Positions 1 to 10,997 of a DNA stretch of 11,023 nucleotides are shown in pieces. Numbering within the stretch: position 1 is the stretch's first letter; every line of letters begins with the position of its first letter. The notes below the pieces were generated by a model. That model was given only the letters and a program-made list of their open reading frames with translations. It did not search any database and had not been told where the DNA came from. The stretch comes from a virus. The stretch lies in the UHGV virus genome UHGV-0053823, one strand, 5' to 3'. The position numbers were made by a program, and so were the translations under genes.

Positions 1-361
1 CCATATCTAACCGGACATTCAGAGCCATAAGCATTCCTTCAATAATACCTTCCGCTTTATAAAGCCTTTTACCAATAAGCCCATCAGAACATCTATGCTT
101 ACGTGCAAGAGCCATAAATGTCATTCCACCTACGTAATAATCCACCAACAAATCGTGCAAATACTGATTATTCTTGTTTAATCGTGCCATACAACCACAA
201 ATTATCATGGCGTCATCATCAGAACACTGAGGACGTGATTTCACTTTAGTCGGGATTAATCCTTTAAAACCAGCAGCTATCGAGGGCCATGTTACATCTT
301 CATGATTATTTGCTGCCCATGCCCCCCATCGCTCAAGAACCATCTGGATATCACGCGCCAT
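1..361 (-). CDS. Antitermination protein Q (phage 82/DLP12 QuuD-like type), 3' end truncated by window edge
   Basis: Minus-strand frame from ATG at 361..359 is open to position 1 (about 120 codons, no stop). Translation begins [37 protein letters not shown]..., which matches my recollection of E. coli prophage Q antiterminators. The start lies 8 nt upstream of the rusA stop, the usual rusA-Q arrangement. Confidence 0.7.
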
Positions 362-722
362 CGTTACCACCTCTGATTTCGTAAATCTTCACGCCCAGCC
401 GTCCACCTGGCACAGGCTGACCGCGCACAATATTGATTTCATCAAACTGCTCGTCATCAATGAGCACTTCCGCATGCGTCAGCGCATCCAGCGGTGCTTT
501 CAGAATGTTGTCCAGGTCACGGCGGCGCTTATCCGGTGGTTCTGCAATAATTTTTATTGCCAGCCGTCCGGACAGGCTTAATTTCAGCCGCTGCTGGCGA
601 ACAATAAGCGCCACTGCCCGGCGATAACGCTTTCCCGTTTCCGATATAAAGTACGTTCCACCACGACGTCGCCAGTAGGTGTTCACCGTTGGCGGGTAAG
701 GCAAAACAAACTCTATACGCAT
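351..722 (-). CDS. rusA: Holliday junction resolvase RusA
   Basis: 123-aa ORF with ATG start and AAGAGG Shine-Dalgarno 6 nt upstream. Sequence ([14 protein letters not shown]..., [29 protein letters not shown]) is characteristic of the RusA endonuclease family, including the catalytic D-rich core. Confidence 0.85.
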
Positions 723-734
723 CAGTAACCTCTT

Positions 735-1784
735 TTACCCGAGCACGCCGGTTGCAAAGGCGTGATCAAGAAAACGAAAAATTAAATCAACCTGGGAACC
801 ATGCTTTTCTTCGAACGCCAGCGGATCCGCATGAAGTTCGTTGTGATGTTCCCGGCACAACGGTAGCGTGAAAATATCGTGGGCCTTTGTTCCCATCCCT
901 CCCTGACCGTGACCAATCAGGTGATGGGGATCGTCGGCTGGCTGACCACAACACGCACACGGCTGTGTCTTCACCCAGCGCGTATATTTCTCATTTACCC
1001 AACGGCGACGTTTAGGTCGCCTCATGAAAGATTCCGGAGACTCTGGATCAACGGTGATGCTTACCACCGTCTTTTCCTGTGATGGGTTTTGTTGCTGGTG
1101 GGCGTGAGGCAACGGTGCAAGATTTTTTGTGCGCTGTTTCAATATGCTGGTGGCGGTCTGCTCTCCCGGTACGATGTCGCTTTCGCGGTACAAGGAGCAG
1201 ATTTTTTCCGCACGTAACCCCAGAGAACGACGTAATACTGCCTCCGGAAGCGCGTCCGCCACCTGATTGCGGACCGCCCACCAGGATAATTCAGCCAGAG
1301 ATAATTCACGCTCCTGCGTACCGCTTATTGCGTGACCGATGACGTCAATCATCCATGCTGACAGGTTTTGATGAGCAAGTTGCTCAAGTGATTCGGATGT
1401 CTGGTCACGCAGCTGGTTGTCGCAGTGCCAGCACAACACCATTGCGCCGGTACCATAACGGTGAATAACGGTTTCGCTGTGATGATAATCGCCGTGTGGC
1501 CACTGGCAGGATTTAATATGGCGCAACAGCCAGTCAGACAATGCACCAGCACCACCAGCAGCACGAATTACCCGTGCGTTACTGAAAAACGGCAGCAATG
1601 TTTTGTCTTCCACCAGCGGCTGGCGAACGGCAGGGACGACTCCGGATGGCAGGCCGCACATGCTTTTCGGTTCCGGCTCCACCAGCACTCGAGGATTGTG
1701 AAATACCTGCATGGATTCACGACCTGGCTTAAGGACCACCAGCCCGAGTTCCGGTACCAGAACAGGTCGAAGTAATACCCGCAC
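735..1784 (-). CDS. DUF968 family phage protein (YdfU-like) with C-terminal Cys/His HNH-like motif
   Basis: 349-aa ORF ending 13 nt before rusA. C-terminal region CACCGQPADDPHHLIGHGQGGMGTKAHDIFTLPLCREHHNELH resembles the DUF968/YdfU family found beside Q in Qin-type prophages. The start is a non-ATG codon (GTG at 1784), so the true start is uncertain. Confidence 0.6.
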   Translation of the reverse strand: MRVLLRPVLVPELGLVVLKPGRESMQVFHNPRVLVEPEPKSMCGLPSGVVPAVRQPLVEDKTLLPFFSNARVIRAAGGAGALSDWLLRHIKSCQWPHGDYHHSETVIHRYGTGAMVLCWHCDNQLRDQTSESLEQLAHQNLSAWMIDVIGHAISGTQERELSLAELSWWAVRNQVADALPEAVLRRSLGLRAEKICSLYRESDIVPGEQTATSILKQRTKNLAPLPHAHQQQNPSQEKTVVSITVDPESPESFMRRPKRRRWVNEKYTRWVKTQPCACCGQPADDPHHLIGHGQGGMGTKAHDIFTLPLCREHHNELHADPLAFEEKHGSQVDLIFRFLDHAFATGVLG

Positions 1785-2128: not shown

Positions 2129-2158
2129 TGTTGTCGTCAACAGGCAGCGTGCTATCAT
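2129..2158 (+). promoter_or_regulatory. Putative sigma70 promoter of the TA operon with an overlapping palindromic operator
   Basis: TTGTCG (about 2131-2136), 16-nt spacer, TATCAT (about 2153-2158), roughly 36 nt upstream of the antitoxin ATG. Inverted repeat TGTTG-N4-CAACA (about 2129-2142) overlaps the -35, as expected for an autoregulated TA promoter. Confidence 0.3.
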
Positions 2159-2193
2159 CGAATAGTGTTCTATCCTACTCCGTGAGGTTTACC

Positions 2194-2451
2194 ATGCGTA
2201 CAACCCAACAATTCAGCATTACATTAACTAACGAGATGGCTGACATGGTGCGCGCCCGTGTGGCTTCCGGTGCCTATGCTTCAGAAAGCGAGGTCATTCG
2301 TGAAGGGCTTCGCGCACTGAATGAGCGCGATAAAGCAATCGAAGCGTGGTTAACGCATTCAGCCGCCCCCGCTCTTGATTCTATCCGCGAAAATCCAAAC
2401 AACGGACGCTCCATTTCACAGGTTCGCGCCGCGATTCGATCCGGGAAGTAA
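2194..2451 (+). CDS. Type II antitoxin, ribbon-helix-helix ParD-like
   Basis: 85-aa ORF from internal ATG 2194 with GAGG SD 6 nt upstream (the track ORF from 2131 is probably an over-extension). About 85 aa, sitting 5 nt upstream of a ParE/RelE-like toxin gene. The N-terminal region (FSITLTNEMADMVRARVASGAYASESEVIREGLRAL) looks like an RHH DNA-binding fold. Confidence 0.75.
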   Translation: MRTTQQFSITLTNEMADMVRARVASGAYASESEVIREGLRALNERDKAIEAWLTHSAAPALDSIRENPNNGRSISQVRAAIRSGK

Positions 2452-2456
2452 TCTGC

Positions 2457-2756
2457 ATGACATATGAAGTCATCATTACCCCCGAGGCCGAACAGCAGAT
2501 AATAAACCTGCACAGATATATAACGGAGAAAGCAGGAAGCGTCATTGCTGACAATTATGCCAATGCGCTTCTTGATTATCTTGATGGGTTTTCTACATTC
2601 CCGCATCGGGGCAATAAACGCGATGATATTCGCCAGGGAATGCGGGTAACTCACTTCCGCCACAGAACGATTATTGCTTTTGCCGTTGACGGCAATAAAG
2701 TCTTTATCGCGGGTATTTATCATGGTGGGCAAAGCTATGAAGCCGATTTCTTATAA
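2457..2756 (+). CDS. Type II toxin, ParE/RelE superfamily
   Basis: 99-aa ORF starting 5 nt after the antitoxin stop. Size and C-terminal pattern (RVTHFRHRTIIAFAVDGNKVFIAGIYHGGQSYEADF) are typical of ParE/RelE-fold toxins; antitoxin-toxin gene order fits. Confidence 0.75.
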   Translation: MTYEVIITPEAEQQIINLHRYITEKAGSVIADNYANALLDYLDGFSTFPHRGNKRDDIRQGMRVTHFRHRTIIAFAVDGNKVFIAGIYHGGQSYEADFL

Positions 2757-3624: not shown

Positions 3625-3957
3625 TCACTCTCCTTTGATGCGAATGCCAGCGACGCGTAGTGCGTGTTCTAAGTCAATCAGGCAAAGCCAACTGCCATTT
3701 TCTTTAGGTATCATGACATGCCGCTTATCAGCATTTATTGGGTGCCCATATCGAAGGTCGTAGCGAGTCGGTAATTGAACTTCCCTCGCTTCCAGTTCTG
3801 CAATGTGTTTGTTTTTAGCTTCTAGTTCATCCAGCAGCGCCAGCACAACCTGCGGTGTGACTTTCATACGAAATGCCAGCAATTTTTGTGGTGTGGCTAC
3901 TATTTTTATTGCTTCTGCCGCCTCACGCAGTGCCTGATAGTTAATTTCGGTTGTCAT
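3625..3957 (-). CDS. Ead/Ea22-like protein (short form)
   Basis: 110-aa ORF with ALREAAEA and VVLALLDELEAKNKHIAELEAR coiled-coil motifs typical of Ead/Ea22-like early proteins. Start overlaps the upstream stop (ATGA). Confidence 0.6.
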   Translation of the reverse strand: MTTEINYQALREAAEAIKIVATPQKLLAFRMKVTPQVVLALLDELEAKNKHIAELEAREVQLPTRYDLRYGHPINADKRHVMIPKENGSWLCLIDLEHALRVAGIRIKGE

Positions 3958-4832
3958 GCCACCACCTCTTCGAATTTCAACTCCAATTGATCACCCCAGA
4001 TTTCACATGATTCGGAACACGAACCAGTATCAAACCGCCTGGCTTGCACCATCGCCTGATACAAATTACTGTAGTCACTGTCGGCATACATTCTGGCAAT
4101 CCCGTCAAGCGTCAGGTGGCCACGGTACATAACGTCTTTTCCTGTTCTGCGATGACCATCCCTGACGTGTTTGCCTGTAACCAGTTCATTAAAAAACCGC
4201 ATCAGACCAGGTTCGTCTTTACATGCAAGCCCCAGCTTTTGCGTTGACTTTTTGATGCAGAAAACACAGTTCCCGAGGTGCTCTGGGATTTGCAAATCAA
4301 AAGGTTGTGCTCGCCACCACCGGATAACATCCGACTTATCAAAATGTGACAGTTCGGCAAGATACCGGACGCCCGGTTTCGGTTTCAGCCTACGGTGTTC
4401 GTCCGCACGAATACCCAGCCATGTGATGTAATTCCCTCGTCCGAAATGGTCATCGCAATATTTCGTGAAAGGGGTGAGTTTTAGCCTGTCAGTACAGAAC
4501 GCGCCGCCGATGTATGGCGTGCCGTACTTTTTAACCATATCCATAAACGGTTTAAGCACCGGCATTCGCGTCTGAATATCCTTTGGTTCCCATTCCGTAT
4601 AACTATTTGGCTGCCCAAGCTCTGGATTTATATCGACCTGCAACACGGTTAGTGGAATATCCCAGAACTTCACGACTTCCCGAATAAATCGGTATGTCAG
4701 CGGGTGTTCACATCCCGTATCCATGAATATGTAATGAACGTTTTCACCTGCCTTTCTGCGTTGCTCCATAAGGTGAACGAGATACGCCGATGTACGACCG
4801 CCTGAAAAACTCACAACATGATGAGCGCTCAT
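3954..4832 (-). CDS. PAPS reductase-like / PP-loop ATP pyrophosphatase family enzyme
   Basis: 292-aa ORF with N-terminal PP-loop motif VVSFSGGRTSAYL and C-terminal cysteine pairs (NCVFC, GSCSESC) suggesting a metal or Fe-S site. ATG start at 4832. Confidence 0.7.
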   Translation of the reverse strand: MSAHHVVSFSGGRTSAYLVHLMEQRRKAGENVHYIFMDTGCEHPLTYRFIREVVKFWDIPLTVLQVDINPELGQPNSYTEWEPKDIQTRMPVLKPFMDMVKKYGTPYIGGAFCTDRLKLTPFTKYCDDHFGRGNYITWLGIRADEHRRLKPKPGVRYLAELSHFDKSDVIRWWRAQPFDLQIPEHLGNCVFCIKKSTQKLGLACKDEPGLMRFFNELVTGKHVRDGHRRTGKDVMYRGHLTLDGIARMYADSDYSNLYQAMVQARRFDTGSCSESCEIWGDQLELKFEEVVA

Positions 4833-5755: not shown

Positions 5756-6577
5756 TCAGACTGAGAATGTGCCGATGAAGGTTAAGATATCTGCTTCTTC
5801 GAAACGCTCTTTCAGCAGGTCACGGAACTCTTTGGCAATTTCTTCTTCCGCAGCTTCAATGCGCACGATACGTAGTACCAGAACAGGTTGCTCGCTGGTC
5901 AGAATACTTAGACGCAGGGTGAACTCACGGTTGCTCAGGCCCTCGAATGGGATGCATTCAAAGCGGAAAGTGGCAGGCATGATTTCCTTACTTTTAGCCT
6001 CCACTGATTCCATAACTGAGCGGCTACCGCTGAAGTTTTGTTCTTCATATTCAGCACTGCGTTTTGCATCGATAGTCAGACGACGGACAGCAGAGATAGC
6101 CTGTTTGATATCCAGTACATTACCGTCGCTGTCATAGGCCGTGAGGAAGTCGGCCCAGTCTTCCAGCCATTCAGCGAGAGATTTCTGGAGTTGTTTTTTG
6201 CCGTCCACGTCACGTAATGCGCGATATGGTGATGTGGCTTTCAGTTCCAGCAGTGCCTTGTTGTCAGCATGTCCTGGTTGATCCAGAGTGCCGATATTGA
6301 ACACAGTGACCGCTTTCATCGTTTCCGCGTTAATGAAGCAACGAGAGAACCCATCGACATAACCTTTGCTGTATTCAACAAAGTCATCAATACTGGTTGT
6401 GGTCATGACTCCACGGAAACGAAAGCGTTCTGTCATGAATCGCTCCAGACTTTCAATATTTACATTGTCCGGCAATAACGTAACGGGGCATTCCGTAAGC
6501 GGCAAATTTTCACCAGAAAAAGCAGTAGTGGTGAGCTTTACAATTTCTTTAATGGCATTGCTATCTAACTGAGACAT
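5756..6577 (-). CDS. Hypothetical 273-aa phage protein (size and context reminiscent of YfdQ/DUF2303; unverified)
   Basis: Long ORF with ATG start and a weak SD; non-repetitive sequence. Family assignment is tentative, based on length and on being downstream of a roughly 115-aa gene as in the yfdP-yfdQ pair. Confidence 0.6.
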   Translation of the reverse strand: MSQLDSNAIKEIVKLTTTAFSGENLPLTECPVTLLPDNVNIESLERFMTERFRFRGVMTTTSIDDFVEYSKGYVDGFSRCFINAETMKAVTVFNIGTLDQPGHADNKALLELKATSPYRALRDVDGKKQLQKSLAEWLEDWADFLTAYDSDGNVLDIKQAISAVRRLTIDAKRSAEYEEQNFSGSRSVMESVEAKSKEIMPATFRFECIPFEGLSNREFTLRLSILTSEQPVLVLRIVRIEAAEEEIAKEFRDLLKERFEEADILTFIGTFSV

Positions 6578-6646
6578 ATATATTTACCTGAGAAATAAAT
6601 TATTTATGGTTGATATCCCCTGATGTTTTCAGGAGGGAGTGATTAT

Positions 6647-6994
6647 TTAGCGTAAAACAGCGTCATGTTGGCCCTGTTTATCGAAAAGCTGTCCCTGGTC
6701 TTTCTGGAACAAAGTAAGCTCACCACCTTTATTTACAAACATCGGGGTGTTAGTCGTGTCTTCTTCTGATTTACTACCACGCATTGTCGGGCGTGTGAAT
6801 TTTAGTTTATGGGAAACTGATACGCGATTTTCATCAAGTGAAGATAATTCGAATTCAACACATACCTTTCCTTTTTTGTTTGTGCTGTTTACGCCAAAGG
6901 CAACTTCACTTAATACCGCACCAAGTTTATTAACAAATACCCCGCCGTCGAGGTCGTTAATGAAAACATTAACATCTGTCTGATGCTGACTCAT
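6647..6994 (-). CDS. Hypothetical 115-aa phage protein (possibly YfdP-like; unverified)
   Basis: ATG start with GGAG SD about 9 nt upstream; same strand and spacing as the neighbouring operon genes. Confidence 0.55.
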   Translation of the reverse strand: MSQHQTDVNVFINDLDGGVFVNKLGAVLSEVAFGVNSTNKKGKVCVEFELSSLDENRVSVSHKLKFTRPTMRGSKSEEDTTNTPMFVNKGGELTLFQKDQGQLFDKQGQHDAVLR

Positions 6995-7068
6995 ATTGAT
7001 ATCTCCGTGTAGAGAGTGTATTGAGGCTTCAGTTGTTTACTGAATTTAAAGCCTGGTTTGTTTGTGAA

Positions 7069-7656
7069 TTAAAAACTATCGCCGCCGTACTGCCAGTAAC
7101 CCGGGTCGTCCGTGTGATTCGGGTTTGCGTTTTTGCTGCGATTGTCTTTGTCTTTGAGAGTGGAAGCTATATTTGCTACAGTTTCTGGTTTCTTTCCTTC
7201 TGCCTTTTCTTTCAGGGTTTGCCCTGTTTCTGCAATGAATGGAATACGGATTTCCATCTGGTAACTGTCTGCGCCAGTCTTTTTGTTTATGGTTAATACT
7301 TTCTGTAGCACCAACCCGATTTTCTTTCCGTGGAATTCAGGGGCAACGTATTTACTGACGGAAACCATATGTTGCGTTAACTGCCTGATTCCTGCACATC
7401 CCATCATTGCATGAACAATATTTGCACCAAACTTGTTTTCCGTTCCGTCATTTTTCTGAACACAAACACTGAGATACTGAATTTTGCGTCCGTCGTCGGA
7501 TTCTCCAGAAAACTCAATGAATCGGGCACCTTTTTCTGATTGCTTGAGTTCTGCTTCAGTAATGGTAATGATATGCGCACCTGTTTCGGTAATGAAACCA
7601 CCTTGTCCGGCGGTCAGTGCTGCTTCTTCGTTATAAGTAAAAATCACTTCATCCAT
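7069..7656 (-). CDS. Hypothetical 195-aa protein immediately downstream of exo
   Basis: ATG start 7 nt after the exo stop. C-terminal region is Lys-rich then acidic/aromatic, ending ...DDPGYWQYGGDSF. No confident family assignment. Confidence 0.55.
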   Translation of the reverse strand: MDEVIFTYNEEAALTAGQGGFITETGAHIITITEAELKQSEKGARFIEFSGESDDGRKIQYLSVCVQKNDGTENKFGANIVHAMMGCAGIRQLTQHMVSVSKYVAPEFHGKKIGLVLQKVLTINKKTGADSYQMEIRIPFIAETGQTLKEKAEGKKPETVANIASTLKDKDNRSKNANPNHTDDPGYWQYGGDSF

Positions 7657-7662
7657 TAGTTA

Positions 7663-8346
7663 TTAACCCCCCCATTGTTCTCCAAATACAAAACCAATTT
7701 CAGCCAGGGCTTCGTCCATTTTTTCGATGAACTCCGGCACCATCTCATCAAAACTCGCCATGTACTTTTCATCCCGTTCGACCACGACATAATGCAGGCC
7801 TTCTCGCTTCATGCGCGGGTCGTAGTTGGCAAAGTACCAGGCGTCCTTGTCTGTAACCCACATGCTGAATTGCACCTGAGCCATATAAGCGGGTTTGATA
7901 GCATCAAAGCCGCCAAGTCTGAACTTCATGAAGTCGCGGGAAGTGAAGGGACATTTCAGTTCAAGACCGTTGCCGTCGCTGCATAAACCGTCGGGAGAGC
8001 AGGCGGTGCGCATGCTTTCGTCACGAAAAATTATGGGCGTTTCCGAGACGGTAATATCCGCGATAAATTCGAAGAGGGCACGGGCATCATCTTCATACTG
8101 CTTTCCCCATGCGAGCGACTTAGCGTTAACTTCCGGTGCCACGCCGGTACAAACTTCAGCCAGCAGGGTGTGGAAGTATGAGATTTTGGTATCAGGCCAT
8201 TTGCTGCCGGAACGTGGCTTTGCTATCACATTGTGAACTTCTGAAGCCGTGATAATGCCGAGCCTGAGTTTGTGCCACCCATCATCGTCCTGGCTGAGTG
8301 TGGTAATATCCACGCCAGTTCGCTGGAGAATAATTTCTGGCGTCAT
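7663..8346 (-). CDS. exo: Lambda-type 5'-3' exonuclease (Red-alpha / Exo)
   Basis: 227-aa ORF that matches lambda Exo, as I recall it, along nearly its whole length ([11 protein letters not shown]..., [56 protein letters not shown]-terminus [10 protein letters not shown]). Start overlaps the annealase stop (ATGA). Confidence 0.9.
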
Positions 8347-9293
8347 GATACGGCCTCGCTGTTATTTTCCGTGGTGGCGTGAACTTTCGCTTCCGCCGTG
8401 GCCTTGTTTCTGGCAGCTTTCTTTTTGACGAAAGCCAGCGCTTTGACAGCTTCTTCCTGATTGAGATTTTCATGTGATGCAATCGTGCGACCGAATATTT
8501 GGGAACACAGGGGGATCAGGTCATCCCATGTTTTGTTAATTTCGCTCATAGCCTGAGTGATCTCATTAATAATCTCATCTGATGCGGGAGTGACGTCACG
8601 CTCAGGGGGGTGATCAGCATTCAGGATGATACCTTCCCCGGCCTGAGTGTTCAGGTAGTCGATAGCCGTATCCAGGCGATCACGACGGGGCCAGTATTTG
8701 CTGGCGCGTTTAACAATGACTTTGCGGGCCATTTCATCGGGGAAACTATCCCACGGACTACTTCCCCCGTTCTGTCCGGCCTTGCTGCACGCTCTGATGG
8801 CTTCGATTGCCTCGTTGCTCATCTCTTCGGTCAGATAGTCGCCTTCGGATGTTTTGACGACACAATAACCGCCAATACGTGCGCCCCTGTCGACAAACGG
8901 GTTGTATTTGTGAGTGGGGGCGCAGTCAATGCCGTTGGACTCGTAAATGTCCTTCTCGTAAACAAGTTTGCATTGCCCCCACTGAATGGCTCCTGTGACC
9001 TGCGCCAGATGCAGAAGTCCCATATAACTGATATCCAGGCATACAGCACCTTTTCGCGGGACCAGATACGCCAGCTTACTGGCGGGGTTCAGGGTTATAC
9101 CAATGGCTGCAACATTGATGATAGCGTTCTGTGCGCTGGCTAGATTTCCCTGTGCTGTTTTAGCCAGAAAGTCATTTTTCTGGAATTGCTGAATTGCAAA
9201 CTGACTTTCCTTCGCCCATGTCAGCGTTGGTTCAGTCAATGCCTCGCAGAAAAATCGCTCCTGCTGTTTAACAAATTCAACGATATCGAACAT
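8343..9293 (-). CDS. ssDNA annealing protein: RecT-family core with a lambda Bet-like C-terminal domain
   Basis: Core motifs match RecT ([41 protein letters not shown] versus RecT SKAGNNGPWVTHWEEMAKKTAIRRLFKYLP). The C-terminal 70 aa ([16 protein letters not shown]...[20 protein letters not shown]...[15 protein letters not shown]) match the lambda Bet C-terminus as I recall it. Start placed at internal ATG 9293 (AGGA upstream, 16 nt after the Gam-like stop); the track's ATG at 9362 would overlap the upstream gene by 53 nt. Confidence 0.85.
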
Positions 9294-9309
9294 TTTTTGG
9301 TCCTGAAAA

Positions 9310-9591
9310 TCAGAAAGGACAGGGGGAGAATTTCCTCTCCCATTCTTCTTCCGCCCGTGCATAGGCGATCGCTGAGATATAATCGTTGTACGCCTCTTCA
9401 GCTTTATCGCCAGTAAGTGCCAGCTGGGCTTCTTTGGGTAAAAAAAGGCTGCTCATAAGCAATGGTTTATCGGGGAACATGCTGATAAGCTCCAGCGCCC
9501 GATCATCAATCCATTTATCCTTTTCATCCTGAATTTGCTGATTAACCCAGCGACGCTCCTCTATGCGGTCGCAGGTTAGGTATGCGTTCAT
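9310..9591 (-). CDS. Putative Gam-like RecBCD inhibitor
   Basis: 93-aa ORF with AGGAG SD 7 nt upstream. N-terminus MNAYLTCDRIEERRW resembles the start of the short form of lambda Gam (MNAYYIQDRLEAQSW), and it sits directly upstream of the annealase and exo as gam does in lambda. Similarity beyond the N-terminus is weak. Confidence 0.45.
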   Translation of the reverse strand: MNAYLTCDRIEERRWVNQQIQDEKDKWIDDRALELISMFPDKPLLMSSLFLPKEAQLALTGDKAEEAYNDYISAIAYARAEEEWERKFSPCPF

Positions 9592-10187: not shown

Positions 10188-10832
10188 TTAAAGATTAACG
10201 TTGAAACCAAAGCGGGAAGATTTTTCCGATGTACGGGAAATATCCAGCAATTTACGGCGCATTTCTTCCGTCAGATGTTTGAAAGCGTTAAATTCGGCAA
10301 CAGCGGCGTCAACGTTATAGCCCTTGCTGTGTAGTTCGTTGAGGATGCGCATAGTTGGGCTTGGCATATCGAAGAGCACGGAAGCATCAAGGCTGATAAC
10401 TTTGCGATCAACATAATTCATCGTGGCGTAGGGGTGATGCTCAGAAAACCACGATAAAGGGAAATTGATGTTCATCGCAGGAGAAGACAGGGCCAGTTGT
10501 TTCTGTTCCCATAGTTGTTTTTCCATGCGATCGAATTCAGCGATGTAGGCTTCTTTGAAAGCTGCGGCTTTTTTACCAGTGAATCCCATTACCAGGAAGA
10601 CGAAGCCGTTTTTGGTGATTTGATAGGCGTTATAGGTATTACCCCGGTGTTCGAATTTAACCCGCGAAAAGTTGCTGGTTAAGAATTGTTCAGAGCATTC
10701 AAGGGATTCTATTTTCTGAACAACATGGTGATGCTGCTTCTCAAAGAACTCTGCGATGTCAATTGACGTAGTGATGGCATTGCCGTTTTCAATAGTTACG
10801 GATGGGCGAGAAAGGGGAGATATAGTAGCCAT
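10188..10832 (-). CDS. Phage regulatory protein, Rha family
   Basis: 214-aa ORF from internal ATG 10832 preceded by a consensus SD (AAGGAGG, 9-nt spacing). N-terminal domain ITTSIDIAEFFEKQHHHVVQKIESLE ... YQITKNGFVFLVMGFTGKKAAAFKEAYIAEFDRMEKQL matches the Rha domain. Confidence 0.75.
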   Translation of the reverse strand: MATISPLSRPSVTIENGNAITTSIDIAEFFEKQHHHVVQKIESLECSEQFLTSNFSRVKFEHRGNTYNAYQITKNGFVFLVMGFTGKKAAAFKEAYIAEFDRMEKQLWEQKQLALSSPAMNINFPLSWFSEHHPYATMNYVDRKVISLDASVLFDMPSPTMRILNELHSKGYNVDAAVAEFNAFKHLTEEMRRKLLDISRTSEKSSRFGFNVNL

Positions 10833-10997
10833 GGTGGCAGCCTCCTTGATTGGTGATTGATAACCACCGCCGGAGGTCCTAAACTCGCTGGCGGTGGACT
10901 GTACAGGGTTAGGACTACTGGCAATCAAGGGAACCAGCCCGACCGAAGTCGGCCCCATACAGCCCACCATTGATAAGATGTGCGTGCATGTCGATAC

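What the first reader, a model, noticed from the sequence alone, without database searches (positions are those of the whole stretch)
7069..7656. Unknown 195-aa protein after exo with an SSB-like acidic/aromatic C-terminal tail
The gene follows exo by 7 nt. Its C-terminus (lysine-rich, then DDPGYWQYGGDSF) resembles the short acidic tails ending in an aromatic residue that single-strand-binding proteins use to recruit partners. It could be an SSB-like or adaptor protein for the Red-like module. This rests on one motif only.
Basis: inference. Interest (0 to 1): 0.4.

Follow-up and report, generated by a model that had tools for sequence, protein, structure and literature searches.

The report
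Phage single-strand DNA-binding protein gene
The 195-aa gene after exo encodes a known type of phage single-strand DNA-binding protein, 88% identical to the biochemically characterised SSB of phage HK620; here it sits in a RecT/lambda-Exo recombination module and has a re-written C-terminal tip, so it is ordinary but a useful natural variant.

Summary

The gamL-recT-exo-ssb arrangement is already catalogued (phage TL-2011c, "SSB-2", Genome Res 2025).

Two points add to that. The tip needed for Sak4 (NDYPPF) is changed at 5 of 6 positions (YGGDSF) in every RecT-linked copy. The neighbouring RecT carries a Red-beta-like C-terminal domain, which in lambda binds both Exo and the SSB tail. RecT is thus the likely, untested, partner.

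The parts
7069..7656 (-). ssb gene: HK620 HkaK-type phage SSB ('SSB-2', PHROG 743, labelled DUF669 by PGAP), 195 aa plus stop
   Evidence: ORF. PHROG 743 at 2e-66. 88% identity to HK620 HkaK. dN/dS 0.037 in the core.
7216..7656 (-). Codons 1-147: predicted OB-like core (strands 3-7, 26-39, 45-53, 58-67, 92-99, 112-123, 130-140; helix 75-88)
7132..7215 (-). Codons 148-175: two short helices and the lysine-rich, nearly invariant LKDKDxR motif (aa 167-173)
   Evidence: L167 (nearly invariant), K168, D169, D171 and R173 are conserved in 42 aligned homologues. Helices 148-153 and 159-166. Function unassigned.
7072..7131 (-). Codons 176-195: disordered linker plus acidic/aromatic tip; the terminal hexapeptide YGGDSF is at 7072-7089
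   Evidence: pLDDT below 50 for aa 176-195. Terminal Phe is conserved family-wide. 5 of 6 tip residues differ from NDYPPF of SSB_HK620.
7657..7673 (-). exo-ssb junction: exo stop TAA (7663-7665), second TAA, 6-nt spacer, and a G7 Shine-Dalgarno-like run (7667-7673) inside the end of exo
   Evidence: Read directly from the sequence. No minus-strand terminator.
7663..8346 (-). exo: lambda Exo orthologue (86% aa identity; Phe94 of the Red-beta-binding surface conserved)
   Evidence: Pfam YqaJ at 9e-28. phmmer to 6m9k_A/1avq at 1e-138. 194/225 identical. DNA 82-83% identical to lambda exo over 7672-8286.
8343..9362 (-). recT: RecT-family annealase. The longest ORF is 339 aa; Met24 (ATG at 9293) is the more likely start
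   Evidence: Pfam RecT at 2e-25 and PHROG 148 at 4e-92. The longest ORF overlaps gamL by 53 nt.
8397..8621 (-). RecT codons 248-322: Red-beta-like C-terminal domain, the candidate docking site for Exo and for the SSB tail
   Evidence: phmmer to Red-beta CTD chains 8tfu_A (1e-19) and 6m9k_D (3e-15), 40/76 identical. The equivalents of Red-beta F249 and K253 (F311, K315) are present in all RecT-linked loci.
9310..9591 (-). gamL-like RecBCD inhibitor, first gene of the Rec module
   Evidence: PHROG 1050 at 4e-48. PGAP 'host nuclease inhibitor GamL' in L001.
5756..6994 (-). YfdP-like (6647-6994) and DUF2303/YfdQ (5756-6577) genes, which follow the RecT-linked ssb in all loci examined
   Evidence: Pfam DUF2303 at 6e-64. 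Precomputed PF27127 YfdP. Present downstream in all 21 RecT-linked loci in which both ssb flanks were typed. Role unknown.

Best explanation
The gene encodes a phage single-strand DNA-binding protein of the HK620 HkaK type. This type is called 'SSB-2' in lambdoid Rec modules and is a remote DUF669/N4-gp45 relative. It has a divergent OB-fold core, a short conserved basic helical segment, and a disordered tail ending in an acidic/aromatic tip with a C-terminal Phe.

It is co-transcribed in the early-left operon as the fourth gene of a gamL-recT-exo-ssb recombination module.

Proposed mechanism:
1. The core coats the ssDNA made by the lambda-type Exo, and ssDNA at replication forks.
2. The exposed tip then recruits the annealase onto the coated strand, as the NDYPPF tip of SSB_HK620 does for Sak4.
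3. Here the likely receptor is RecT. Its Red-beta-like C-terminal domain keeps the hydrophobic-pocket Phe and the neighbouring Lys that in lambda Red-beta bind both Exo Phe94 and the terminal Phe of E. coli SSB.

Shown here: family identity, fold class, tail conservation, module structure and the chimeric RecT. Shown in the literature for a close homologue: ssDNA binding, tetramer, tail-dependent annealase stimulation. Inferred: that this copy binds ssDNA in the same way (very likely), and that its tail contacts RecT (about 45% likely).
For: Identity:
- 166/189 identical to HK620 HkaK.
- PHROG 743 SSB at 2e-66.
- Annotated as SSB or DUF669 in public records.

Function of the homologue:
- PMC5928155 reports ssDNA gel shifts, a roughly 95-kDa species, and a 10-fold loss of Sak4 recombineering on deleting NDYPPF.

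Fold:
- pLDDT 79.5 overall, core mostly 80-94, aa 176-195 disordered.
- BFVD hits are DUF669 proteins and N4-like phage SSBs, at 3e-11 to 1e-6.

Tail:
- 91/134 representatives end in Phe and 34 end in DDDIPF.

Module:
- The same gamL-recT-exo-ssb-yfdP-DUF2303 order occurs in TL-2011c and in 60 phage records.
- PMC12315714 lists RecT-type SAP plus SSB-2 for TL-2011c.

Partner:
- RecT aa 248-322 is homologous to the Red-beta CTD.
- The F249/K253 equivalents, and Exo F94, are invariant in all RecT-linked loci.
- The Red-beta CTD binds the SSB C-tail through F249/K253 and SSB F177 (PMC6393309).
- RecTs recognise the last 7 residues of SSBs (bioRxiv 10.1101/2020.04.14.041095).

Tail re-writing tracks context:
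- YG[GS]D[SN]F occurs in 21/21 RecT-Exo loci, and YNYDQF in a further RecT-Exo lineage.
- NDYP[PA]F or NNYPPF occurs in 60/60 HkaM-Sak4-Abc2 loci.
- 7/13 tail residues differ, against 15/172 in aa 4-175 (Fisher p = 1.4e-4).
Against: - No biochemical data exist for this copy or for any RecT-linked copy.
- The two tail classes are two closely related lineages, so the perfect tail/context association may reflect shared descent rather than adaptation (tree).
- Sak4-linked relatives elsewhere carry many tips, including ...SASF...NDF...IDF and ...MDY. An 'SF' tip is therefore not specific to RecT.
- The disordered linker diverges about as fast as the tip (4/7 against 7/13), and tail dN/dS is below 1 with dS saturated. 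Positive selection is not shown.
- RecT of this sequence type also occurs without any phage SSB (HK140, phi80; PMC12315714), so the SSB is accessory.
- Lambda itself uses host SSB.
Confidence: 0.85

Rival explanations
1. It is a general-purpose phage SSB, for replication or ssDNA protection. Its tail mainly engages host SSB-interactome proteins or phage replication proteins, not RecT. Its position in the Rec module reflects co-expression only.
For: Kazlauskas et al. 2016 (PMC4889955) argue that DUF669 proteins are replicative SSBs of phages that lack other SSBs. Many family members carry the exact host-like tip DDDIPF (34/134), which would address the host interactome. RecT of this type works without a phage SSB in other phages.
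Against: This copy's tip (YGGDSF) lacks the penultimate Pro and most of the acidic residues of the host tip. The P176S change alone (ssb-113) impairs binding of E. coli SSB to chi (PMC3045619). The gene always sits directly after an annealase or annealase-exonuclease pair of three unrelated types: Sak4, RecT and Sak/Rad52-like. The only tested homologue acts through its neighbouring annealase.
Confidence: 0.3
2. The tail's partner is another module protein: the lambda-type Exo, or the always co-inherited downstream YfdP-like/DUF2303 proteins, rather than RecT.
For: The YfdP-like and DUF2303 genes follow ssb in all 21 RecT-linked loci in which both ssb flanks were typed, and never in Sak4-linked loci. 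A YqaJ-type exonuclease directly precedes ssb in both non-Sak4 contexts.
Against: Lambda Exo showed no binding to the SSB C-terminal peptide (PMC6393309). The Phlomobacter Sak-YqaJ-SSB modules showed no YfdP/DUF2303 match downstream by tblastn. No function is known for YfdP or DUF2303.
Confidence: 0.1
3. It behaves like PrgE rather than a classical SSB. That means a filament-forming OB-fold protein that binds ssDNA and dsDNA similarly ('beads on a string'), with a role other than presenting ssDNA to an annealase.
Against: The 88%-identical HK620 protein gives two discrete SSB-like complexes on an oligonucleotide and elutes as a tetramer-sized species. Identity to PrgE is only 12-14%.
Confidence: 0.08
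4. It is a hitch-hiking remnant of a Sak4 module that no longer functions in the RecT context.
For: The core phylogeny nests the RecT-linked genes inside Sak4-linked diversity. DNA homology to the Sak4-linked gene begins at codon 4 and fades near codon 182, with unrelated flanks. This fits a gene-sized transfer.
Against: The ORF is intact in all 21 RecT-linked loci typed and in the two P0003 loci, and the full module is present in 60 phage records. Core dN/dS is 0.037. The terminal Phe is retained.
Confidence: 0.03

Closest known systems
SSB_HK620 (HkaK, NP_112044; 'SSB-2' of lambdoid Rec modules)
   Same: 88% identical over aa 1-189 and the same length of 195 aa. Only 8/147 residues differ over aa 4-150, measured against the HK629 gp39 homologue. 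Same basic LKDKDNR segment and terminal Phe. Same position at the end of the recombination module in the early-left operon.
   Different: Five of the last six residues differ: YGGDSF against NDYPPF, the element shown to be required for Sak4 stimulation. The upstream partner genes are GamL-RecT-lambda-Exo instead of HkaM-Sak4. The downstream genes are YfdP/DUF2303 instead of Abc2.
SSB gene of Stx phage TL-2011c and relatives (P13374, VT2phi_272, ArgO145, vB_EcoP_phi367)
   Same: Same gene (93-100% identity) in the same gamL-recT-exo-ssb-yfdP-DUF2303 module. Listed in PMC12315714 as RecT-type SAP with SSB-2.
   Different: Nothing of substance. Tip variants YGGDSF, YGSDSF and YGGDNF occur among them.
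E. coli SSB (canonical bacterial SSB) and its DDDIPF tip
   Same: Architecture: OB core, disordered linker, and an acidic tip ending in Phe that recruits partners. Many distant members of this family end in DDDIPF exactly.
PrgE of plasmid pCF10 (PDB 8S4S/8S4T)
   Different: 12-14% identity. PrgE is 144 aa. It binds dsDNA as well as ssDNA and forms filaments through its N-terminal tail.
Phage N4 gp45-type SSBs / Pfam DUF669
   Same: Predicted-structure matches to N4-like phage SSBs and DUF669 proteins, at Foldseek E 3e-11 to 1e-6. The literature links HkaK, DUF669 and N4 gp45 by HHsearch.
   Different: The current Pfam DUF669 HMM does not hit this protein even at E = 10. One distant relative gives a sub-threshold hit.
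Lambda Red (Red-beta CTD / Exo / host SSB tail triad)
   Same: Exo is 86% identical to lambda Exo. RecT ends in a domain 53% identical to the Red-beta CTD, with the F249/K253 equivalents and Exo F94 conserved.
   Different: The annealing core is RecT-type rather than Red-beta. The module supplies its own non-canonical SSB, whereas lambda relies on host SSB.

Membership tests
HK620 HkaK-type phage SSB (SSB-2, PHROG 743) | Full-length sequence homology to HkaK / PHROG 743 | tested here: met
   88% identity over 189 aa, E 2e-128. PHROG 743 at E 2e-66, covering aa 3-190.
HK620 HkaK-type phage SSB (SSB-2, PHROG 743) | Gene sits in the phage recombination module, directly after the annealase or annealase-nuclease genes | tested here: met
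   Order gamL-recT-exo-ssb on the minus strand. The same order occurs in TL-2011c.
HK620 HkaK-type phage SSB (SSB-2, PHROG 743) | Disordered C-terminal tail ending in an acidic/aromatic tip with terminal Phe | tested here: met
   pLDDT below 50 for aa 176-195. Ends ...DDPGYWQYGGDSF. 105 of 115 close homologues end in F.
HK620 HkaK-type phage SSB (SSB-2, PHROG 743) | Preferential ssDNA binding and tetramer formation | not testable with these tools
   Shown only for the HK620 protein (PMC5928155).
HK620 HkaK-type phage SSB (SSB-2, PHROG 743) | Tail-dependent recruitment and stimulation of the neighbouring annealase | not testable with these tools
   Shown for Sak4 with NDYPPF. Here the tip is YGGDSF and the neighbour is RecT, and this pairing is untested.
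Pfam DUF669 (PF05037) | Match to the family HMM above its gathering score | tested here: not met
   No Pfam hit at E <= 10. The distant relative P0150 scores 19.3 bits against a cut-off of 21. PGAP and Hutinet et al. nevertheless label it DUF669, and BFVD structural hits include DUF669 proteins.
Canonical bacterial SSB (Pfam SSB, OB-fold homotetramer) | Sequence match to the SSB family | tested here: not met
   No Pfam or NCBIfam SSB hit. No PDB sequence hit with the single sequence or the profile.
Canonical bacterial SSB (Pfam SSB, OB-fold homotetramer) | OB fold | tested here: inconclusive
Canonical bacterial SSB (Pfam SSB, OB-fold homotetramer) | C-terminal tip D-D-D-I-P-F | tested here: not met
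   The tip is YGGDSF. The canonical tip is present in 34/134 distant family representatives.
N4 gp45-like phage SSB | Fold similarity to N4-like phage SSBs | tested here: met
   Foldseek against BFVD: Vibrio phage phi50-12 SSB at E 4.5e-8 (TMq 0.61) and Roseobacter phage RD-1410W1-01 SSB at 1.3e-6. These are predicted structures only.
T7 gp2.5-like SSB/annealase | Fold or sequence similarity to gp2.5 | tested here: not met

The most novel reading that the evidence does not exclude
When an HK620-like ssb gene moved from a Sak4 module into a RecT/lambda-Exo module, its partner-recruiting hexapeptide was re-written from NDYPPF to YGGDSF, keeping only the terminal Phe. The new tip would be tuned to the Red-beta-like C-terminal domain of the chimeric RecT. 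Loss of the penultimate Pro, the same P-to-S change as E. coli ssb-113, would insulate the phage SSB from the host SSB interactome. If so, this is a natural, minimal example of switching SSB-tail specificity between two unrelated annealase families.
Probability: 0.2. Interest if true: 0.5.

Novelty: already known. Interest (0 to 1): 0.25.

Why it matters
The protein family, its SSB activity, its tail-dependent action and this exact module arrangement are already published and annotated, so the finding itself is ordinary.

Its residual value is practical. Nature offers the same SSB core (8/147 differences over aa 4-150) with two different recruiting tips, next to two unrelated annealases (Sak4, and a RecT carrying a Red-beta-type CTD).

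That is a ready-made tail-swap experiment on how SSB tips select recombinase partners. The question is relevant to the portability of recombineering systems, which depends on RecT-SSB tail compatibility.

Tried and rejected
- Pfam and NCBIfam scans of the protein gave nothing, even at E = 10. The DUF669 label could not be reproduced with the current HMM.
- Sequence searches of the PDB, with the single protein and with a 42-sequence profile, gave no meaningful hit. PrgE was found only by structure.
- I considered that the tail type is diagnostic of the partner class. I rejected this as a general rule, because Sak4-linked relatives in other genera carry tips ending SF, DF, DY and PF.
- I looked for positive selection on the tail. 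dN/dS is below 1 and dS is saturated over 13 codons, so there is no support, only a roughly 20-fold higher dN than in the core.
- The supplementary tables of PMC12315714 were not held, so the TL-2011c module was verified directly from the record.
- A search for the PDB codes 8TFU/8TG7/8TGC in the paper library returned irrelevant papers. I do not state what ligands those entries contain.
- A plus-strand terminator-like hairpin at 7098-7125 lies antisense inside the tail-coding region. I treated it as a chance match.
- The overlapping plus-strand ORFs (7021-7296, 7133-7264 and others) were not pursued further.
- I did not attempt a RecT-CTD/tail fusion prediction.

Full report
**Observation**

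The ORF exists as described, but on the minus strand: window 7069-7656, ATG start, 195 aa. It ends ...TLKDKDNRSKNANPNHTDDPGYWQYGGDSF.

- It lies 6 nt (not 7) downstream of the stop codon of a YqaJ/lambda-type exonuclease gene (7663-8346).
- The spacer holds a second in-frame TAA. A run of seven G at 7667-7673 could serve as a ribosome-binding site.
- The simple scan finds no minus-strand terminator between exo, this gene and the next one. The genes are probably co-transcribed.
- The Rfam scan found nothing in the region.

**What it is**

Pfam and NCBIfam give no hit, even at permissive thresholds. PHROG 743, 'single strand DNA binding protein', matches at 2e-66 over aa 3-190.

- In RefSeq E. 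coli genomes the same gene is called 'DUF669 domain-containing protein'.
- In the phage collection a 100% identical copy (vB_EcoP_phi367) and many 93% copies in Stx2a phages are annotated as SSB.
- The protein is 88% identical (166/189) to HK620 HkaK.
- Hutinet et al. 2018 (PMC5928155) purified HkaK and showed several things. It shifts ssDNA like E. coli SSB. It elutes at about 95 kDa, which suggests a tetramer. It stimulates the annealase Sak4 in vivo and in vitro, and this requires its last six residues, NDYPPF.
- Kazlauskas et al. 2016 (PMC4889955) had predicted that DUF669 and N4-gp45-like proteins are highly diverged OB-fold SSBs with acidic tails.

**Structure**

I built an AlphaFold2 model on a 42-sequence alignment. 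It has mean pLDDT 79.5, and the core is mostly 80-94.

- The order of elements is strands, then a helix at 75-88, then more strands, as in an OB fold.
- Two short helices follow (148-153 and 159-166).
- The last 20 residues are disordered.

Fold searches gave these results.

| Search | Top result | Other hits |
|---|---|---|
| Foldseek vs PDB | PrgE | B. subtilis SsbA |
| Foldseek vs BFVD | DUF669 proteins | N4-like phage SSBs; range 3e-11 to 1e-6 |

PrgE is an OB-fold ssDNA binder thought to derive from a lactococcal phage SSB (PMC11137577). The fold evidence therefore supports an atypical OB-fold ssDNA binder. It does not place the protein in the canonical SSB family.

**The tail**

A profile search of 1.84 billion representatives found 677 family members at E <= 0.001. 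I examined the 134 full-length ones among the best 150.

| Feature of the C-terminus | Count (of 134) |
|---|---|
| Ends in Phe (background Phe frequency 4.1%) | 91 |
| Ends in F, W or Y | 106 |
| Ends in PF | 78 |
| Ends in DDDIPF, the E. coli SSB tip | 34 |
| At least two acidic residues in the last eight | 113 |

Among the close homologues, 105 of 115 end in Phe.

**Context and history**

| Tip of the SSB | Loci | Upstream genes | Downstream genes |
|---|---|---|---|
| YG[GS]D[SN]F | 21/21 | GamL-RecT-Exo (GamL not detected in 2) | YfdP-like and DUF2303 |
| NDYP[PA]F or NNYPPF | 60/60 | HkaM-Sak4 | Abc2 |
| YNYDQF (a third E. coli lineage) | 2 | GamL-RecT-Exo | YfdP-like and DUF2303 |

- In other genera the gene almost always follows Sak4, with varied tips.
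- In Candidatus Phlomobacter it follows a Sak (Rad52-like, PF06378) annealase and a YqaJ exonuclease.
- A neighbour-joining tree of the core (aa 4-175) nests the RecT-linked genes next to the E. coli Sak4-linked clade, inside wider Sak4-linked diversity.
- At the DNA level, homology between the window and HK629 starts abruptly at codon 4. It runs at 80-95% identity and decays after about codon 182. Both flanks are unrelated.
- The simplest reading is a gene-sized mosaic transfer of an HK620-like ssb into a RecT-Exo module.

Divergence is concentrated at the C-terminal end.

| Region (aa) | Residues differing from the HK620-type protein (HK629 gp39) |
|---|---|
| 4-150 | 8/147 |
| 151-175 | 7/25 |
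| 176-182 | 4/7 |
| 183-195 | 7/13 |
| 190-195 (last six) | 5/6 |

- The tail against aa 4-175 gives Fisher p = 1.4e-4.
- Core dN/dS is 0.037, and tail dN is 0.52 against 0.025 in the core.
- This is a faster replacement rate. It is not proof of adaptive change.

**The likely partner**

- The exonuclease is a lambda Exo orthologue: 194/225 identical, and phmmer 1e-138 to 6M9K chain A. Its DNA is 82-83% identical to lambda exo up to a few bases before its stop.
- The RecT is chimeric. It has a RecT core (Pfam aa 54-227) followed by a domain (aa 248-322) homologous to the Red-beta C-terminal domain. phmmer gives 1e-19 to 8TFU_A and 3e-15 to 6M9K_D, with 40/76 identical. PHROG 252 'Bet-like' also matches aa 192-312.
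- Caldwell et al. 2019 (PMC6393309) showed that this Red-beta domain binds lambda Exo through a hydrophobic pocket and Lys253 that receive Exo Phe94. They also showed that Red-beta binds the C-terminal nonapeptide of E. coli SSB. That interaction is lost with Red-beta F249D or K253A and with SSB F177A.
- The equivalents F311 and K315 of this RecT, and Phe94 of this Exo, are conserved in every RecT-linked locus examined.
- Filsinger et al. (bioRxiv 10.1101/2020.04.14.041095) report that RecT proteins recognise the last seven residues of SSBs.

Together these make RecT the most plausible receptor for the Phe-terminated tail. This step is inference.

**Points against over-reading**

- The perfect tail/context association involves closely related lineages, so it may reflect shared descent.
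- Sak4-linked relatives also carry SF, DF and DY tips.
- The linker diverges as fast as the tip.
- RecT proteins of this type occur without any phage SSB (HK140, phi80; PMC12315714), so the SSB is accessory.
- An intriguing detail is that the tip's Ser-Phe ending reproduces the P176S change of E. coli ssb-113, which weakens binding to chi (PMC3045619). That could insulate the phage SSB from host partners, but it is speculation.

**Comparison with what is known, and novelty**

The Genome Research 2025 survey of lambdoid Rec modules (PMC12315714) already names HkaK-type proteins 'SSB-2'. It lists RecT-type SAP with SSB-2 for phage TL-2011c. It also remarks that shuffling of partner-interaction domains probably underlies such combinations, without analysing it.

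I confirmed that TL-2011c carries the same gamL-recT-exo-ssb-115aa-DUF2303 block. Sixty phage records hold at least 80% of the block.

The finding is therefore already known in kind and in arrangement.

**Verdict**

- This is a real gene.
- It belongs to a characterised phage SSB family.
- It is of low novelty, with a clear and cheap experimental follow-up (tail swaps between the Sak4-linked and RecT-linked variants).

Noticed in passing
window 8397-8621 (-), within recT 8343-9362: RecT is a chimera. A RecT-family core is followed by a Red-beta-like C-terminal domain (53% identical to lambda Bet CTD; PDB 6M9K_D, 8TFU_A), with the Exo/SSB-binding Phe and Lys conserved. The adjacent Exo is 86% identical to lambda Exo.
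   Followed up: yes
window 9291-9362 (-): The longest RecT ORF (339 aa) overlaps the end of gamL (9310-9591) by 53 nt. Family profiles start matching at about aa 25, so Met24 (ATG at 9293) is a likelier start. It would leave a 16-nt gap after gamL.
   Followed up: partly
window 10887-10974 (-): A full-length C4 antisense RNA (Rfam RF01695, 78.9 bits against a gathering score of 45) overlaps the 5' end of the Rha/Ash-family ORF (10188-10970). This suggests a P1/P7-style c4-type immunity element upstream of the Rec module.
   Followed up: no
window 5756-6994 (-): A YfdP-like 115-aa gene and a DUF2303/YfdQ gene follow ssb in all 21 RecT-linked loci in which both ssb flanks were typed, and never in Sak4-linked loci. 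Their function, and any link to recombination, is unknown.
   Followed up: partly
window 7138-7158 (-), aa 167-173 of the SSB: An LKDKDxR motif is invariant or nearly so across 42 homologues. It lies just before the disordered tail and is as conserved as the OB core. No role is assigned to it in the literature I read.
   Followed up: no
window 2131-2756 (+): A ParD-like antitoxin / ParE-like toxin pair lies on the plus strand, embedded among minus-strand early-left genes.
   Followed up: no
window 351-1784 (-): RusA resolvase (351-722) and a DUF968/HNH-like protein (735-1784) lie at the distal end of the same strand. These are nin-region-type genes in an unexpected position relative to the early-left genes. 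This may mark a module junction or a neighbouring prophage remnant.
   Followed up: no
window 3954-4832 (-): A PAPS-reductase-like gene (PHROG 424 at 2e-91) lies among the ea-region genes. The same gene follows the module in the P0003 loci L111 and L112.
   Followed up: no
L016, L019, L020, L022, L024-L026, L029 (Candidatus Phlomobacter fragariae MAG): At least eight copies of a Sak(Rad52-like)-YqaJ-SSB-2 module occur in one genome. In several the exonuclease is split into two tblastn segments, probably by frameshifts. The SSB tail here ends NEFNPF plus one extra residue (P or S).
   Followed up: partly
window 7098-7125 (+): A 12-pair terminator-like hairpin with a T-run lies on the plus strand, antisense to the tail-coding part of ssb. 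It is probably a chance match. It reflects the GC-rich CCCGGG segment of the tail codons.
   Followed up: no
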